This document shows positions 930 through 6,799 of a stretch of 64,000 nt of DNA, piece by piece (position 1 is the stretch's first letter; each line of letters begins with the position of its first letter). The position numbers and the translations under genes were made by a program. The notes beneath the pieces are model-generated. The model made no database searches. It worked only from the letters and a program-made list of their open reading frames with translations, and was not told the DNA's origin. This stretch comes from a virus. The stretch is from the IMG/VR virus record IMGVR_UViG_3300009514_000888, positions 32,001 through 96,000 of that record. One strand, 5' to 3'.

Positions 930-2531
930 GTGAATATGACCCAGACAACCGCACTCGACCAGCCGCATGCCCTTGCGTTTTACCACGAAGGCAAGGTCCG
1001 CGTTCATCCTGACGCATCCCAGGATGTCAAGAGCGCGGTTCTTACCTTTATTGACACTGTGCTGACGGCCAGCGGACAGGCGACGTATTACAACACCAAG
1101 AAAGAGCAGTATCGCGCGCTCTACGAGGTTCATGATGCGATTTTTCGCGTCAATCGCGGACTGTATGGCGCGATGCTGTGTCTGCCTGGCATCATGGACA
1201 AGAGCCGTCAAATTGGTTTTACCAAGCTCCTGGAAGATAACAGTGAGGGCAGGGAAGCATCGTTCTTAACCCCAGAACAGGAAAATTGGGTTATTGCCTA
1301 TCTGTCCAGAAATATTAGACCCAGCGCGCTGTTCCGGCAGTTCGTGGAAATTCGCAATAAGAGGGTGAATAACAGCCGCGTGCGCAAGTTCATTTTTGGC
1401 GCGATCCTGCCGAGTAATTCGCTGCCGCTTTGGTCGGTCAAGTATCGATCCAAGGTTCGCGCTGCGCTAGAACATGCTTGGAGCCGGCAAATGGCTTCTG
1501 CGATTCGTTGTATTCTGAGCAAACCTGCCCAGTCGAGAACAGATAAGGAAAGGTCCATCCTTGATAAGAACATTGATCGCTGGGTACGGCGCGGCAATAG
1601 CGAGCTGACCCCCGACGAGGTTTATCAGTGTATTTGCTTTGTTTTGGGCGGGAAGATGGGTAGCAAGTATACCGTCAAACTGTTGATGCAGCGGCTTGAT
1701 GCCCGAGAGAGCCTGGACAAGGGCAAGGACTTACCGCCGGAAGTCCTGGAAGGCATTCGAAGTCGCTATCACAAGGATGCTGCTAAGGGCGCGGTCTTGG
1801 CGGTCACTAAGGATACGATGACCAATACCCAGAAGCGCCGCGTACAGCGCTCGGCCAAGGAAGCGAATGTTGATGTTAAAATGGACCCGCTCAAGCAGGA
1901 CATTATTCCGCTGTATGTTTACGCGCTTGAAATGGGGATGACTCGCGAAATCTTCCAGGCCCTCGACACGAAGGCTCGCAAAATCGCGCAGACAATCCCT
2001 GTTCGATATAGGCGCGTCGGCATTGTGGTGGATAACTCCGAGTCGATGTTCGGCACGGATCAGGCGAAGCGCAAGCCGTTGGCTATCGCCCTGGCTATGC
2101 GAGACATCCTTGCGGCGTCCGCGACAGAATATGCCTTCGCCATCCCATCGCAGGGACAGTTCGATGACTTCGGCATGACAACGTCGCGCGGCGACACGAG
2201 TCTTGCCGAGCCTCTGATTCGAGTAATCGAGGAAGGGGTTGATGCGGTCTACCTGATTACTGATGGATACGAGAACAGTCCGGCAGGCAGGACCGGCGAA
2301 GTTATTGAACGTTTGAGGGAAATCGGCATTGAGGTTCCTATCTTCCAGGTGTCGCCTGTTGTGTCCGTCGAGGCGGCAGGTATTCGTGCGCTTTCGGATC
2401 GTGTCGCTCCGATGCCGGTTGCGAACCCAGCAGGCATCGGCTTGTCGATGATTCGAGCAACGATTACGAGCGATGTCGAGACGGGCATCGAAGCGCTTTT
2501 GGAAACCACGCGACCGCTACTGGAGGGTTAA
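930..2531 (+). CDS. TROVE/Ro60-like helical protein with C-terminal VWA domain
   Basis: 533 aa with a basic helical N-terminal part (ATYYNT). The C-terminal VWA has MIDAS-like IVVDNSESM, T (GDTSL) and LITDGYEN. Size and layout match Ro60/TROVE-VWA proteins; the VWA call is firmer than the TROVE call. Confidence 0.65.
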   Translation: MNMTQTTALDQPHALAFYHEGKVRVHPDASQDVKSAVLTFIDTVLTASGQATYYNTKKEQYRALYEVHDAIFRVNRGLYGAMLCLPGIMDKSRQIGFTKLLEDNSEGREASFLTPEQENWVIAYLSRNIRPSALFRQFVEIRNKRVNNSRVRKFIFGAILPSNSLPLWSVKYRSKVRAALEHAWSRQMASAIRCILSKPAQSRTDKERSILDKNIDRWVRRGNSELTPDEVYQCICFVLGGKMGSKYTVKLLMQRLDARESLDKGKDLPPEVLEGIRSRYHKDAAKGAVLAVTKDTMTNTQKRRVQRSAKEANVDVKMDPLKQDIIPLYVYALEMGMTREIFQALDTKARKIAQTIPVRYRRVGIVVDNSESMFGTDQAKRKPLAIALAMRDILAASATEYAFAIPSQGQFDDFGMTTSRGDTSLAEPLIRVIEEGVDAVYLITDGYENSPAGRTGEVIERLREIGIEVPIFQVSPVVSVEAAGIRALSDRVAPMPVANPAGIGLSMIRATITSDVETGIEALLETTRPLLEG

Positions 2532-2535
2532 GGTT

Positions 2536-3567
2536 ATGGCTATGGCGAATATCAGCGTAGGCGAACTTTTGCACGGCTGTGTGCCTGGCCGGATTCAGTC
2601 TGTAGGCTACATGCAGGTCATCCCTCTTATCTCTGGTATTGAGGATGAGCGTTTCGTGTCTCCGAGACGGGCGAAGGTTTCGACCACGACATACGGCACA
2701 CTTGTTTTCGACAACACCGAAAACAAGGAGGTTATTGTCCCGGCTCAGGCGGCTTATATTGTTAAGCAGGCAGCGCAGGACCATGCGATGACGACGGTTG
2801 GGCTGGTTCCCAAGAAGAAGACGATATCGTTCAATACGGCAGCATGTATCCAGCAGACTCAGGGTGGAACTATTTACTCTGACGAGCATGAGATGATTAT
2901 CTTGCCGGTCGAATTGCGCAATGATGCCCACCAAGTCCGCAAGAAGCTGGGCTACGAAAAACTGTGGCCTGCCATTAACGCTATGAATGAGAGGTATGGC
3001 GTTAGCCGCGGATATGGCGCGCAGGGGCATTTGGAATACTTCATGGATGCGTTCAAGACTCAACTGGATTGCTTCGTCGCCGAGTTTGAGCCTGTTCCTA
3101 AACAGGTCGGCGCGATTGTGTTGGTTGGCGGCAGGGTCGTTGGCATTGAACGCACCCCGAACGAGGAATATTGGCGAGACATCTGGCGCACCTTGATCAG
3201 GGAGTGCTATGGGTCGCTGGCGATTCTTGAACAGCGAAAACATGCCACGAAGGCTCCTCCAGTCCCCAAGACCCGAGAGGCTTTGCCCAAGGCAACCGAT
3301 CTGTCGGACCTCAAGACGAAACTCCGGCAGACCCAGGACCGAGAGTATTCTAATGTGAAAACCATCGTGGAGAACGTTGCGGCACTGAAGCTTGATCGGT
3401 CAACGGACGCCACCAGCGGCTCGTTTGTGGTCGATGCGGTAGAGGGCGACTCTTTCGTAGGCCAGGTGGTTGTAGACGGCGAGAAGATTGTGTACGCTTC
3501 TCTCGTCGCTCGCGGATCGCAGGCCAAGAATGAGGATTGGTTCCTGGGTAAACGGTTTGCGATGTAA
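2536..3567 (+). CDS. ARPP-1/DUF6569-like protein, partner of the VWA gene
   Basis: Starts 4 nt after the VWA stop (ATG 2536). Motifs QSVGYMQVIPL, KQAAQDHAM and AACIQQTQGG. Family recalled from memory, not searched. Confidence 0.55.
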   Translation: MAMANISVGELLHGCVPGRIQSVGYMQVIPLISGIEDERFVSPRRAKVSTTTYGTLVFDNTENKEVIVPAQAAYIVKQAAQDHAMTTVGLVPKKKTISFNTAACIQQTQGGTIYSDEHEMIILPVELRNDAHQVRKKLGYEKLWPAINAMNERYGVSRGYGAQGHLEYFMDAFKTQLDCFVAEFEPVPKQVGAIVLVGGRVVGIERTPNEEYWRDIWRTLIRECYGSLAILEQRKHATKAPPVPKTREALPKATDLSDLKTKLRQTQDREYSNVKTIVENVAALKLDRSTDATSGSFVVDAVEGDSFVGQVVVDGEKIVYASLVARGSQAKNEDWFLGKRFAM

Positions 3568-3582
3568 AATTGCCCCCGGTAG

Positions 3583-3619
3583 CTCCTCCTGGCGGCTTCG
3601 GTCGCTAGGGGGAGTTTTT
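3583..3619 (+). terminator. Rho-independent terminator
   Basis: Hairpin CTCCTCCTGGCGGC-TTCG-GTCGCTAGGGGGAG followed by TTTTT. Confidence 0.85.
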
Positions 3620-3667
3620 CTTGAGGCATAAATTGAAGAAAATGCAGAAAATTGACGCCAGGATGCA

Positions 3668-5778: not shown

Positions 5779-5794
5779 GTAGATAGGTAGATAG

Positions 5795-6013
5795 GTGATA
5801 ACGATGTTTCAACCAAACAACATTGAGACGTTCATGGGGGGAACTTTTGGGCTGCCTAAGCATGGGATCAAGACAGTGGGTGACTTGCGTATACTGCTTC
5901 GATCCTGGGCGCAAGAGGTAGATGATTGGGGCGACGACGATACCCCGATCAGCGAAGTAGCGATTGTCAAAGACAGAGTCAGCGTGACTCTTGCGGCAGG
6001 TATTGTTCAGTGA
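5795..6013 (+). CDS. Hypothetical protein
   Basis: 72-aa ORF within the operon-like run. Confidence 0.55.
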   Translation: MITMFQPNNIETFMGGTFGLPKHGIKTVGDLRILLRSWAQEVDDWGDDDTPISEVAIVKDRVSVTLAAGIVQ

Positions 6014-6039
6014 GAACCCTCAATATAAGGAGACCAACT

Positions 6040-6402
6040 ATGGGATTCTCGTAGGTTGACAATTCGGTTTCGTATCTTTACGTTATCACACGTAGGGACT
6101 TGCCATTTCCTGTCTGCGCCGTTCAGGCGTGTCATGCCGCAATCGAAGCGGCCAGGTTCATTCCCCCATAGGTAGAGCATCCTCATCTCGTTTTGTGCGC
6201 CGTCAGAGATGAGGAGCGACTTGAACGCGCAGCTGAGAAGCTGGAGCGTAAGGGTATCCGTCTGCGCCGATGGCGAGAGCCGGATATCGATCAGTTAACC
6301 GCAATTGCGACAGAGCCTATTTCAGGCGATGCGCGTCGTTACTTCAAAGACTTCCAACTTCTTAAAGGAGACCACGATGGCTACGCTCACACAGTATCGT
6401 AA
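6040..6402 (+). CDS. Pth2-like peptidyl-tRNA hydrolase with two in-frame TAG codons (readthrough-dependent)
   Basis: RBS TAAGGAGA precedes ATG 6040. Frame reads MGFS*VDNSVSYLYVITRRDLPFPVCAVQACHAAIEAARFIPP*VEHPHLVLCAVRDEERL...WREPDIDQLTAIATEPI, with TAG at 6052-6054 and 6169-6171. YVITRRDL, AVQACHAA and EPD..LTAIA are Pth2-family motifs. The track ORF 6193-6402 is only its 3' part. Confidence 0.8.
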
Positions 6403-6799
6403 TGTTTACAAGACCCGCTTCGGCTACGTTTCGTGTAGCTACAGGATGTATCAGAAGCTCAGAAGGCTTAACTACCTTTGCCTTCTGACTCGCCAACAGA
6501 ATGCGAGATGGGAGCGGTGGAACCGCAAAGACCCCCAGAACCGAGTCATCCGTCAATGGATCAGGAACAGCCAGGGCCAGAAGGTCGGTTCGGTTGTTTC
6601 TGGTCCACAGCCCGAGCCTAAGAGATACCGTGTCCTCGAATCTCATCTGGAGAGCATTGAGTTCGCTTATCGATTGGCCAAGTATCCGATGCCGCAGGCG
6701 ACGTTGGCGATGGAGGCGGCTCGCTTGATATCTGTCGAAGACAGCAACAGAGACTTCGACCGGCTCTTGGAAACAGCTGAGCAGGAGATTATATCCTGA
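6377..6799 (+). CDS. Hypothetical basic protein coupled to the Pth2-like gene
   Basis: RBS AAAGGAGACCA precedes ATG 6377 (MATLTQYRNVYKTRFGY). Its RBS block resembles that of the Pth2-like gene. Confidence 0.7.
   Translation: MATLTQYRNVYKTRFGYVSCSYRMYQKLRRLNYLCLLTRQQNARWERWNRKDPQNRVIRQWIRNSQGQKVGSVVSGPQPEPKRYRVLESHLESIEFAYRLAKYPMPQATLAMEAARLISVEDSNRDFDRLLETAEQEIIS

What the first reader, a model, noticed from the sequence alone, without database searches (positions are those of the whole stretch)
930..6799. Candidate new system: Ro-like protein + modular Y-RNA-like array + amber suppressor + amber-gated Pth2 in one island
Seen: within 6 kb, all on one strand, are a TROVE/VWA-like gene coupled to an ARPP-1-like gene, four related structured ncRNAs, a CUA tRNA, a (p)ppGpp-hydrolase-like HD gene and a Pth2-like gene that needs UAG readthrough. 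Known: Ro60/Y RNA complexes act in RNA quality control, Pth recycles peptidyl-tRNA, and alarmone hydrolases counter stringent or toxSAS shutdown. Inference: this is a phage translation-protection module against host tRNA- or ribosome-targeting defences, with a built-in stop-codon sensor. I do not recall this combination being described, but I could not search.
Basis: partly seen in the sequence, partly recalled or inferred. Interest (0 to 1): 0.9.

Follow-up and report, generated by a model that had tools for sequence, protein, structure and literature searches.

The report
Two phage tRNA modules, side by side
This stretch of a giant uncultured phage holds two separate, apparently undescribed devices: a diverged Ro60-like protein with an enzyme-like partner and four small RNAs on one shared stem, and a stop-codon-reading tRNA beside a peptidyl-tRNA-hydrolase gene that can be translated only if that stop codon is read through.

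Summary
They do not form one system. They are two modules that are inherited independently.

Module A (930-4272) has three parts:
- a protein with the Ro60 fold (VIA-align Z 17.4) but no Pfam TROVE match;
- a translationally coupled ARPP-1 protein;
- four Y-RNA-like RNAs that share a covarying "handle" and carry different cargo, two of them tRNA mimics.

This trio recurs in 78 of 80 phage loci and 54 of 60 bacterial loci.

Module B (4443-6799) has these parts:
- a tRNA with anticodon CUA;
- a small-alarmone-hydrolase-type HD protein;
- a PTH2-family gene with TAG at codons 5 and 44;
- a conserved downstream ORF.

Among 65 unique related loci, 47 open the Pth2 frame with Met plus 0-7 codons and then a stop. 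Where a suppressor tRNA lies within 6 kb (39 loci), its anticodon matches that stop in 39 of 39: TAG/CUA, TGA/UCA, TAA/UUA. The cultured phages Serratia BF and Xanthomonas XacN1 show the same lock. The phage itself uses the standard code.

An anti-defence role is untested. This scan had already noted both modules on other DNA. I found no paper describing either.

The parts
930..2531 (+). Diverged Ro60-like protein (helical ring plus vWA domain with MIDAS), 533 aa
   Evidence: No Pfam or PDB sequence hit. AF2 pLDDT 92.8. Top Foldseek hits are all Ro60. VIA-align Z 17.4 to Xenopus Ro60, 15.5 to Thermus phage phiLo Ro60, 12.0 to D. radiodurans Rsr. D368/S370/S372/T423/D445 invariant.
2536..3567 (+). 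ARPP-1 family protein, translationally coupled to the Ro60-like gene (ORF open from 2473)
   Evidence: Pfam PF20208 E 1.4e-28. Adjacent to the Ro60-like gene in 78/80 phage and 54/60 bacterial loci. Invariant C104, H83, Q21, Q81, Q310.
3581..3616 (+). Terminator-like hairpin after the protein pair
   Evidence: 16-bp stem followed by a T run.
3668..3695 (+). Sigma-70-like promoter in front of the RNA array
   Evidence: TTGACA-16-TACTAT, 10 of 12. Consensus match only.
3696..3788 (+). Y-like RNA module 1 (handle core 3709-3774), short hairpin cargo
   Evidence: R1 40.7 bits, E 8e-10 on the region. Fold z -2.98.
3846..3948 (+). Y-like RNA module 2 (handle core 3863-3931), short cargo, long outer stem
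   Evidence: R1 46.2 bits. Fold -45.3 kcal/mol, z -7.4.
3954..4106 (+). Y-like RNA module 3; cargo is a permuted YrlA-type tRNA-like domain (3997-4072); followed by a U run
   Evidence: Rfam YrlA positions 24-84, 33.5 bits, below the gathering score. Handle halves CGGGAACUCUUGCGUCAAUACCG and GUUGACCCAAACCUUAUCCCG read directly. R1 recognises only the 5' half.
4116..4272 (+). Y-like RNA module 4 (handle core 4132-4252); cargo is a near-complete tRNA look-alike (4155-4224) with a 6-nt anticodon loop; followed by a U run
   Evidence: R1 27.7 bits. Rfam tRNA 46.5 bits with mispaired acceptor stem; ARAGORN 'tRNA-???'.
4443..4515 (+). Amber suppressor tRNA, anticodon CUA
   Evidence: Rfam tRNA 58.6 bits; ARAGORN anticodon cta.
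4517..5163 (+). Two small ORFs (94 aa and 121 aa) of unknown function, not conserved with either module
   Evidence: No Pfam or PHROG hit. No homologue in Pth2 loci.
5176..5778 (+). HD hydrolase of the RelA/SpoT hydrolase, small-alarmone-hydrolase / MESH1 type
   Evidence: Pfam HD_4 35 bits against 27.2. PDB 7oiw 1.2e-12, 3nr1 (MESH1) 1.9e-11. Next to tRNA-CUA and locked Pth2 also in L083 and L084.
5795..6013 (+). 72-aa ORF of unknown function between the HD gene and the locked Pth2 gene; not conserved with either module
   Evidence: ORF listed. No Pfam or PHROG hit. No homologue in the Pth2 loci.
6040..6402 (+). PTH2-family gene locked by TAG at codon 5 (6052-6054) and codon 44 (6169-6171)
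   Evidence: Sequence and SD. Pfam PTH2 26.9 bits with TAG=Q. Family profile hits solved Pth2 structures at E 1e-5. Closest uninterrupted homologue has Gln at both positions. Lock conserved across loci.
6377..6799 (+). Conserved 140-aa ORF overlapping the Pth2 stop; follows Pth2 in 17 related loci
   Evidence: tblastn hits directly downstream of Pth2. No Pfam family.
6804..6835 (+). Terminator-like hairpin closing module B
   Evidence: 14-bp stem followed by a T run.

Best explanation
The 6-kb stretch is not one system. It is two independent, individually conserved modules that lie next to each other in the tRNA and translation accessory region of an uncultured giant phage. The contig is 186 kb and CheckV rates it 39% complete.

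Module A is a diverged branch of the Ro60/Y-RNA ribonucleoprotein.
- A ring-plus-vWA protein with the Ro60 fold is co-translated with an ARPP-1 protein, which looks like an enzyme because of its invariant Cys, His and Gln.
- After a terminator, a separate promoter drives four small RNAs.
- The RNAs share a handle: an outer stem, a GGRACU loop, an 8-bp helix and a UNCNG element.
- The handle displays swappable cargo: two short hairpins, one permuted YrlA-type tRNA mimic and one near-complete tRNA mimic.
- By analogy with Ro60 and Y RNA, the handle is the protein-binding site, and the tRNA-like cargo recruits, or acts as a decoy for, proteins that handle tRNA. This step is inferred, not shown.

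Module B is a lock-and-key translational gate.
- The Pth2-like mRNA starts at a strong Shine-Dalgarno sequence but meets UAG at codon 5 and again at codon 44.
- The hydrolase is therefore made only when the phage's own tRNA(CUA) is expressed, charged and outcompetes release factor 1.
- The inserted residue is probably Gln, judged from the closest uninterrupted homologue.
- Placing the stop right after the start means that failed read-through costs only a tetrapeptide.
- Pth2 output is thus coupled to suppressor activity. The likely purpose is to clear the peptidyl-tRNA and stalled-ribosome load that stop-codon read-through creates. Alternatively, acting with the adjacent alarmone-type HD hydrolase, it may clean tRNA 3' ends. 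The purpose is inferred.
For: Module A:
- Ro60 fold.
- MIDAS motif.
- ARPP-1 family match.
- ARPP adjacent to the Ro60-like gene in 78/80 phage loci and 54/60 bacterial loci.
- Handle structure, 14 base pairs. On the hand-picked alignment, 79% of cells are paired against 61% in shuffles, and 12 of 14 pairs show compensatory changes. On 38 matches, 86% are paired and 14 of 14 pairs are compensatory, although that alignment was fitted to the model.
- Strand and position: all 38 phage matches and all 61 bacterial matches of model R1 lie on the strand of the Ro60-like gene, mostly directly upstream of it or downstream of ARPP.
- tRNA-like cargo.

Module B:
- 47 of 65 unique loci have an ATG leader of 1-8 codons, then a stop no more than 20 codons before the conserved R-x-D-L core. 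In 42 of these there is no in-frame ATG after the stop.
- The suppressor anticodon is cognate to the lock codon in 39/39 loci: 33 TAG/CUA, 5 TGA/UCA, 1 TAA/UUA.
- The second TAG is at the same alignment position in 12 loci.
- Gln occupies both positions in the closest intact homologue.
- The gene passes the Pfam PTH2 cut-off and the family profile matches solved Pth2 structures.
- The phage uses the standard code. TAG ends 45 of 203 ORFs, and coding density is 0.931 with or without TAG as a stop.
- Cultured examples: Serratia phage BF has an unannotated M-T-H-TAG Pth2 frame with a tRNA(CUA) 3.3 kb away. XacN1 ORF364 is preceded in frame by ATG-AAG-TAG, and its authors reported finding no target for its CUA suppressors (PMC5852040).

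Separability of the two modules.
Against: - Nothing here is experimental. I have no data on expression, on charging of the tRNA, on which residue is inserted, or on RNA-protein binding.
- The Ro60-like protein fails the Pfam TROVE model, and the RNAs fail the Rfam YrlA gathering score. The Ro60/Y-RNA analogy therefore rests on fold, synteny and cargo.
- TAG terminates 22% of this phage's ORFs, and TAG-ended genes show no excess of back-up stops. A strong suppressor should therefore be costly, so read-through may be weak or restricted in time.
- About a quarter of Pth2 loci have an ordinary start and no lock, for example RaK2.
- Only 39% of the genome is in hand, so other TAG-containing genes could exist elsewhere.
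- The catalytic residues of the Pth2-like protein were not verified.
Confidence: 0.7

Rival explanations
1. All components (Ro60-like protein, ARPP, Y-like RNAs, suppressor tRNA, HD hydrolase, gated Pth2) form one integrated phage system that protects translation against host defences aimed at tRNA or ribosomes.
For: - All parts lie on one strand within 6 kb and all relate to tRNA or translation.
- Partial co-location recurs. L003 and L006 have a Pth2 homologue 4-6.5 kb from the Ro60-like gene. L104 has ARPP about 5 kb from Pth2.
- Both modules tend to sit inside phage tRNA arrays.
Against: - 77 of 80 Ro60-like loci lack Pth2 within 8 kb, and 79 of 80 lack the HD gene.
- None of the 60 bacterial loci with the Ro60-like gene showed a Pth2 or HD homologue in the flanks held (up to 4 kb); 54 of these have ARPP adjacent.
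- L083 keeps the window's gene order without module A.
- 5 of 9 near-complete genomes carrying the Ro60-like gene have no Pth2.
- XacN1, BF and RaK2 have Pth2 but gave no match to the Ro60-like family.
Confidence: 0.1
2. The Pth2-like frame is a decaying pseudogene with two nonsense mutations. The neighbouring tRNA(CUA) is unrelated to it.
For: - Under the standard code the frame is broken twice.
- Both TAGs are one C-to-T step from the CAG (Gln) implied by the closest homologue.
Against: - The early stop recurs in 47 of 65 unique loci from very different phages. The second TAG is at the same position in 12 loci.
- The stop type follows the suppressor anticodon in 39/39 loci.
- There are no frameshifts, and the conserved residues downstream of both stops are intact.
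Confidence: 0.03
3. The phage reassigns TAG in a block of (late) genes, as described for recoded gut phages. Pth2 simply lies in that block, so there is no gene-specific gate.
For: - Phage stop-codon recoding with suppressor tRNAs is known (bioRxiv 10.1101/2021.08.26.457843, found).
- Only 39% of the genome is available.
- A second gene family in some related loci carries the same early stop.
Against: - TAG ends 45 of 203 ORFs here, and reading TAG through does not raise coding density.
- The candidate TAG-joined frames I inspected look like ordinary gene boundaries.
- Related loci have standard-code densities of 0.8-0.93, and most also use TAG as a terminator.
- The stop is fixed at codons 2-9 of Pth2 rather than scattered through the gene.
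Confidence: 0.07
4. The four 'Y-like' RNAs are only tRNA precursors or degenerate tRNA genes with flanking processing stems. They are not ligands of the Ro60-like protein.
For: - Modules 3 and 4 contain tRNA-like elements.
- In L001 two modules enclose sequences that ARAGORN types as tRNA-Thr and tRNA-Cys.
Against: - Modules 1 and 2, and many relatives, keep the handle but carry no tRNA-like cargo.
- The handle covaries.
- The handle is tied to the Ro60-like/ARPP pair, on the same strand, in both phages and bacteria.
Confidence: 0.1

Closest known systems
Bacterial and phage Ro60 (Rsr) with YrlA/YrlB or Yrn1 Y RNAs (Chen et al. 2014, PMC4201824; Thermus phage phiLo Ro60, PMC12135203)
   Same: - Ring-plus-vWA fold with a MIDAS motif.
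- Small RNAs encoded next to the protein on the same strand.
- At least one RNA carries a tRNA-like domain with the permuted T-arm/D-arm order of YrlA.
- Several RNAs per locus.
   Different: - No Pfam TROVE match, and about 12-14% identity to solved Ro60 structures.
- Always paired with ARPP-1.
- The RNA handle (GGRACU ... UNCNG ... CCUUA) is not the YrlA stem. Rfam YrlA aligns only to the cargo and scores below the gathering cut-off.
- Chen et al. searched only genomes annotated with a TROVE protein, so this branch would have been missed.
ARPP domain of ARG-centred NAD/ADP-ribose conflict systems (Iyer et al. 2022, PMC9503650)
   Same: Same Pfam family (PF20208), with an invariant Cys and invariant Gln residues that suggest catalysis.
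   Different: In the passages I retrieved, that paper lists ARPP next to ARG, HIRAN, WYL or deacetylase genes. They do not mention a neighbourhood with a Ro60-like vWA protein and Y-like RNAs.
Stop-codon recoding in phages as a regulator of late genes (bioRxiv 10.1101/2021.08.26.457843 and related crAss-like phage work)
   Same: A phage-encoded suppressor tRNA makes translation of certain genes depend on reading a stop codon as sense.
   Different: Here the genome uses the standard code. The stop is confined to a fixed position just after the start of one small gene family (plus one more family in some loci). All three stop codons are used, each matched by its own suppressor.
prfB (RF2) autoregulation through an in-frame UGA, and lambda bar-type minigenes (from my own knowledge)
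   Same: An early in-frame stop makes the gene's output report the balance between termination and an alternative decoding event. Very short leaders ending in a stop are linked to peptidyl-tRNA drop-off and to Pth biology.
   Different: Passage here is by a cognate suppressor tRNA, not by a +1 frameshift. The regulated product is a Pth2-type hydrolase, not a release factor.
Small alarmone hydrolases / MESH1, and toxSAS toxins that pyrophosphorylate the tRNA CCA end (from my own knowledge for the toxSAS part)
   Same: The HD protein matches RelA/SpoT-type hydrolase domains. It lies next to genes that act on tRNA.
   Different: Substrate unknown. Adjacent to the lock-and-key pair in only a few loci (window, L083, L084).

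Membership tests
Ro60 / TROVE proteins | HEAT-repeat ring followed by a vWA domain (overall fold) | tested here: met
   VIA-align Z 17.4, 410 residues aligned, rmsd 4.6 A to 2i91/1yvr. Z 15.5 to phage phiLo Ro60. The top 12 Foldseek hits are all Ro60.
Ro60 / TROVE proteins | Sequence match to the Pfam TROVE model | tested here: not met
   No TROVE hit at E <= 0.01. No PDB sequence hit at E <= 1. 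None of the 120 listed homologues (of 128 found) carries a precomputed Pfam domain.
Ro60 / TROVE proteins | MIDAS motif in the vWA domain | tested here: met
   D368, S370, S372, T423 and D445 are invariant in 48 sequences.
Ro60 / TROVE proteins | Binds Y RNA and misfolded RNA | not testable with these tools
YrlA (Rfam RF02553) | Score at or above the gathering cut-off over the whole model | tested here: not met
   33.5 bits against 69; only model positions 24-84 (the tRNA-like domain) align, in module 3.
YrlA (Rfam RF02553) | Permuted tRNA-like domain (T arm before D arm) mounted on a stem | tested here: met
   Module 3 alignment to the YrlA consensus. Similar cargo in L001 modules.
ARPP-1 (PF20208) | Pfam gathering score, and conserved Cys and Gln | tested here: met
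   100.5 bits against 27. C104, Q21, Q81 and Q310 invariant in 23 sequences.
PTH2 (PF01981) | Pfam gathering score | tested here: met
   26.9 bits against 23 when TAG is read as Gln. Family profile hits solved Pth2 structures 24bt (1e-5) and 2zv3 (8e-5).
PTH2 (PF01981) | Catalytic residues of characterised Pth2 enzymes | tested here: inconclusive
   E80-P-D82 and T87 are invariant and align near the D-A-G...T region of solved Pth2. I did not map them onto the catalytic residues.
PTH2 (PF01981) | Uninterrupted reading frame under the genome's own code | tested here: not met
   Two in-frame TAGs, while the genome uses TAG as a terminator.
tRNA (RF00005), amber suppressor | Cloverleaf above the gathering score with anticodon CUA | tested here: met
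   58.6 bits against 29; anticodon loop CUCUAAA.
tRNA (RF00005), amber suppressor | Aminoacylation and its identity | not testable with these tools
   G1-U72 with discriminator U73. 56 related suppressors are too diverse to type. Gln is inferred only from homologues.
RelA/SpoT-type hydrolase (small alarmone hydrolase / MESH1) | HD_4 domain above the cut-off, and similarity to solved hydrolase domains | tested here: met
   35 bits against 27.2. 7oiw 1.2e-12, 3nqw 1.2e-11, 3nr1 1.9e-11.
Stop-codon-recoded phage (TAG reassigned genome-wide or block-wide) | TAG rare as a terminator, and many genes with in-frame TAG | tested here: not met
   45 of 203 ORFs end in TAG; density 0.931 under both codes. 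No other convincing TAG-interrupted gene in 186 kb.

The most novel reading that the evidence does not exclude
The suppressor tRNA, the stop-locked Pth2 and the alarmone-type HD hydrolase form a dedicated sensor-effector circuit. It measures whether phage tRNAs are intact, charged and winning against release factors. That would include conditions under host anticodon-nuclease or toxSAS attack. In response it switches on enzymes that clean tRNA 3' ends. In this phage it works together with the adjacent Ro60-like/ARPP particle, whose tRNA-mimic RNAs act as decoys or repair scaffolds. Together they would make a coordinated island that protects the tRNA pool.
Probability: 0.12. Interest if true: 0.9.

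Novelty: new variant of a known kind. Interest (0 to 1): 0.72.

Why it matters
First, the result gives a concrete target for the orphan suppressor tRNAs of jumbo phages that use the standard code. The XacN1 authors looked for such a target and reported none (PMC5852040). The stop in the gene and the anticodon of the tRNA change together across all three stop codons. That is strong comparative evidence for a natural lock-and-key gate on translation. Cultured phages (Serratia BF, Xanthomonas XacN1) carry it, so it can be tested directly.

Second, the result extends the Ro60/Y-RNA world to a large branch that Pfam does not detect. This branch always has an ARPP partner and a modular RNA handle that displays tRNA mimics. 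It occurs in giant phages and in Planctomycetota, Myxococcota and Bacteroidota. It also gives ARPP, a domain of unknown activity, an RNA context.

Third, it shows that the attractive single "island" is a juxtaposition of two modules. That should guide how experiments are designed.

Tried and rejected
- blastn of the island against 50,697 phage records: no match.
- PDB sequence search and PHROGs for the Ro60-like protein and ARPP: nothing.
- A hand-written motif-plus-stem descriptor for the RNA handle gave 24 hits in shuffled sequence against 41 in real sequence. I dropped it in favour of a covariance model.
- RNAalifold alone recovered only the central 5-bp helix. I set the full structure by hand and then tested it.
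Sensitivity for the most distant Ro60-like clade (L030-L080) therefore stays low.
- Rfam YrlA in the 14 control genomes: none above the cut-off, so I had no canonical YrlA stem to compare with.
- A search for an RGPP/RAPP-type arrest leader, which earlier notes of this scan reported in other phages: none in window 3500-7200.
- A test for extra back-up stops after TAG-ended genes: no enrichment.
- Typing the suppressor's amino-acid identity from 56 aligned suppressors: too diverse.
- The N-terminal domain fused to Pth2 in XacN1 and L109, and the second locked gene family: no Pfam hit for either, and no PDB sequence hit for the second family.
- A short anticodon-loop pattern search in whole phage records was uninformative.
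- The look-up of sequencing runs: no run was listed and no RNA holder was listed.
There is therefore no verdict on binding between the Ro60-like protein and ARPP.
- A search for the Ro60-like family in the XacN1, BF and RaK2 records found nothing. The tool warns that an empty answer is weak evidence.

Full report
CONTEXT. The window is bases 32,001-96,000 of a 186-kb viral contig. CheckV rates the contig 39% complete, so the phage is probably several hundred kb. Under the standard code, a simple greedy ORF call covers 93.1% of the contig. TAG ends 45 of 203 ORFs. Reading TAG as sense does not raise the density (0.931 both ways). The candidate TAG-joined frames I inspected are ordinary gene boundaries with their own start codons. 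The phage therefore uses the standard code in the part we hold.

OBSERVATION. Every item in the finding is real and lies on the + strand.

The 533-aa protein at 930-2531 has no Pfam or PDB sequence match. It belongs to a well-conserved family: 128 proteins at E <= 1e-3, and none of the 120 listed has a Pfam annotation. Its C-terminal part has an invariant MIDAS signature, D368-x-S370-x-S372...T423...D445. An AlphaFold2 model built on 48 homologues is confident (pLDDT 92.8, pTM 0.89). Its best structural matches are full-length Ro60 chains:
- Foldseek ranks only Ro60/TROVE entries in its top 12 (E 2e-7).
- VIA-align gives Z 17.4 over 410 residues to Xenopus Ro60, 15.5 to Thermus phage phiLo Ro60 and 12.0 to D. 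radiodurans Rsr.
- Matches to vWA domains alone reach Z 12 at most.

The next gene is an ARPP-1 protein (Pfam 100.5 bits). Its likely start, at 2536, is 4 nt after the Ro60-like stop. An alignment of 23 homologues has invariant C104, H83, Q21, Q81 and Q310. This fits the conserved Cys and Gln noted when ARPP was defined (PMC9503650).

THE RNA ARRAY. A terminator-like hairpin (3581-3616) is followed by a near-consensus promoter (TTGACA-16-TACTAT, 3668-3695). Four hairpin modules then follow. All four share two elements:
- a 5' element, GGRACU-N3-4-GC-GUYAAUNCCG;
- a 3' element, UURAC-C-NNN-(A)ACCUA-YCC.

The three base pairs next to a C-C mismatch covary between modules: GAA/UUU, UUG/CAA and GCG/CGC in the window, and GCA/UGC, GAG/CUC and CUG/CGG in locus L001.

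The cargo differs between modules:
- Modules 1 and 2 carry short hairpins.
- Module 3 carries a permuted tRNA-like domain that aligns to positions 24-84 of Rfam YrlA (33.5 bits, below the gathering score).
- Module 4 carries an almost complete tRNA look-alike with a 6-nt anticodon loop (Rfam tRNA 46.5 bits).

IS MODULE A CONSERVED? Eighty IMG/VR loci encode a relative of the Ro60-like protein. In 78 of them ARPP follows directly; the other two are cut by contig ends. Related handles lie just upstream of the Ro60-like gene in many loci.

I tested the handle structure as follows.
- I aligned 16 short-cargo modules from 12 sources (the window and 11 loci) and wrote a 14-bp structure. 79.3% of cells pair, against 61.1% in shuffles (0 of 500 shuffles reach this). 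12 of 14 pairs show compensatory changes. Sliding the partner columns drops pairing to 33-54%.
- The covariance model R1 built from this alignment found 38 matches at E < 0.1 in about 1.07 Mb, both strands searched. All 38 lie on the strand of the Ro60-like gene.
- On those 38 matches, 14 of 14 pairs are compensatory and 86% of cells pair. That alignment was fitted to the model, so it leans towards the structure.

In bacterial genomes, 60 loci carry the Ro60-like gene. They include Pirellulaceae chromosomes, Minicystis rosea, Saprospiraceae and others. ARPP is adjacent in 54 of them. R1 gives 61 further matches there, again all on the gene's strand and mostly within 800 nt upstream. These bacterial matches are independent of the sequences used to train the model.

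Module A is therefore a conserved trio in phages and bacteria. Chen et al. (PMC4201824) searched only genomes annotated with a TROVE protein, so this branch would have escaped them.

MODULE B. The tRNA at 4443-4515 is a good cloverleaf with anticodon CUA (58.6 bits). The HD protein is of the RelA/SpoT hydrolase, small-alarmone-hydrolase type.

The Pth2-like frame starts at ATG 6040, which lies 7 nt after AAGGAG. It reads M-G-F-S-TAG and has a second TAG at codon 44. With TAG read through, it passes the Pfam PTH2 cut-off, and a profile of the family matches solved Pth2 structures. The closest uninterrupted homologue (P0122, 62-69% identical) has Gln at both positions.

I fetched 79 viral loci with homologues and examined the frame upstream of the conserved R-x-D-L core. 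After removing duplicates and adding L003 and the window, 65 unique loci remain.
- 47 open with ATG plus 0-7 further codons and then a stop, no more than 20 codons before the core. The most common leader is two codons.
- In 42 of these there is no in-frame ATG between the stop and the core.
- 39 of the 47 have a suppressor tRNA within 6 kb. In all 39 the anticodon is cognate to the lock codon: 33 TAG/CUA, 5 TGA/UCA, 1 TAA/UUA.
- If labels were dealt at random, the six non-amber cases all matching would occur in about 1 of 2e7 arrangements (my arithmetic).
- The second TAG of the window recurs at the same alignment position, just before (D/E)xHPH, in 12 loci.
- These loci have standard-code densities of 0.8-0.93, and most also end ORFs in TAG.

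Cultured phages show the same arrangement.
- Serratia phage BF has an unannotated frame, ATG-ACG-CAC-TAG followed by the Pth2 body, and a tRNA(CUA) 3.3 kb downstream.
- Xanthomonas phage XacN1 ORF364 has a Pth2 C-terminal domain and is preceded in frame by ATG-AAG-TAG. Its authors reported two CUA suppressors with no identifiable target (PMC5852040).
- Klebsiella phage RaK2 has the gene without a lock.

The pseudogene reading and the whole-genome recoding reading are both poor fits to these data.

ARE THE TWO MODULES ONE SYSTEM? No.
- Only L003 and L006 have a Pth2 homologue within 8 kb of the Ro60-like gene, and only L002 has the HD gene.
- No bacterial Ro60-like locus showed a Pth2 or HD homologue in the flanks held, up to 4 kb.
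- L083 has the window's order (SNase, tRNA-CUA, HD, locked Pth2, then the four downstream ORFs) with nothing in place of module A.
- Among nine near-complete phage genomes that carry the Ro60-like gene, five lack a Pth2 gene anywhere.
- XacN1, BF and RaK2 gave no match to the Ro60-like family. This is weak evidence.

What the two modules share is their neighbourhood. Both tend to sit inside phage tRNA gene arrays. Within module B, the stable core is the suppressor tRNA plus the locked Pth2. The 140-aa ORF that overlaps the Pth2 stop follows it in 17 loci. The HD gene is adjacent in only two other loci.

MECHANISM.
- Shown by sequence and comparison: the gate's architecture, and its co-variation with the tRNA anticodon.
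- Inferred: ribosomes starting at 6040 terminate after four codons unless tRNA(CUA) decodes UAG. Pth2 output then reports suppressor abundance, charging and competition with RF1. The early position keeps the cost of failure low, and it may favour the tRNA, because very short nascent chains are poor termination substrates (my knowledge).
- Inferred purpose: to match peptidyl-tRNA recycling to the stalls and drop-off caused by read-through, or to clean tRNA 3' ends together with the HD hydrolase.
- For module A, binding of the handle to the ring and the role of ARPP are inferred from the Ro60/Y-RNA precedent and from strict synteny.

LIMITS. A broader RNA model could not be calibrated.

EARLIER NOTES. 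This scan had already recorded both modules many times on other DNA and on this genome. I re-derived the key points independently. I also looked for the RGPP arrest leader that those notes describe. It is absent here, so this window carries the simpler variant, with the lock inside the Pth2 gene itself. Four literature searches found no description of either module.

Noticed in passing
L123:6919-7530, L135:6995-7603, L141:4029-4607, L144:6884-7540, L148:6309-6914, L149:6626-7267, L159:7619-8206: A second gene family (about 200 aa, N-terminus like M-T-stop-V...EELHEAM) lies just downstream of Pth2 and carries the same early lock. It uses TAG in loci with a CUA tRNA and TGA in L159, which has UCA tRNAs. 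No Pfam or PDB match. No homologue seen in this window.
   Followed up: partly
Serratia phage BF KY630187.1 286,092-286,406 (L161) and 289,666-289,741: A cultured phage has an unannotated Pth2-like frame opening M-T-H-TAG and a tRNA(CUA) 3.3 kb away. Related Erwinia and Yersinia phages also show no annotated feature under the match.
   Followed up: partly
Xanthomonas phage XacN1 AP018399.1, L160:946-1806: ORF364 (an unknown N-terminal domain plus Pth2) is preceded in frame by ATG-AAG-TAG. L109 has the same fusion with M-S-F-T-TAG. The N-terminal domain contains a WHDIGKPF stretch but has no Pfam hit.
   Followed up: partly
window 7847-8551: A FeeM-type N-acyl amino acid synthase (Pfam PF21926, E 1.7e-35), syntenic with L083.
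   Followed up: no
window 112-486: A staphylococcal-nuclease-like endonuclease (Pfam SNase; PHROG 452, E 5e-34), directly upstream. In L083 it sits directly before the tRNA(CUA).
   Followed up: no
window 4516-4519: The 94-aa ORF starts at ATG 4517, two bases after the 3' end of tRNA(CUA), with no Shine-Dalgarno sequence. tRNA 3' processing could leave a nearly leaderless mRNA.
   Followed up: no
L001:12360-13110: Five handle modules in a row. Two enclose sequences that ARAGORN types as tRNA-Thr(AGU) and tRNA-Cys(GCA), so some handles may carry real tRNAs rather than mimics.
   Followed up: partly
G000:C1 about 3,230-3,480 (about 28.6 kb before the window): A release-factor-type GGQ domain (SGGPGGQHRNRKKKAIRMRHKPTGI) is encoded in the same phage. 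I confirmed only the motif.
   Followed up: partly
G000:C1:135379-135456 (+) and 126079-126176 (-), outside the window: My loose handle descriptor flagged two further handle-like sites elsewhere in the contig. That descriptor had a high false-positive rate, and these sites were not checked with the covariance model.
   Followed up: no
L006:3840-3900: This Pth2 homologue has an in-frame TGA just upstream, no UCA tRNA among the locus's 37 tRNAs, and a well-placed ATG mini-ORF (MKQSH-stop) in another frame. How it is initiated is unclear.
   Followed up: no
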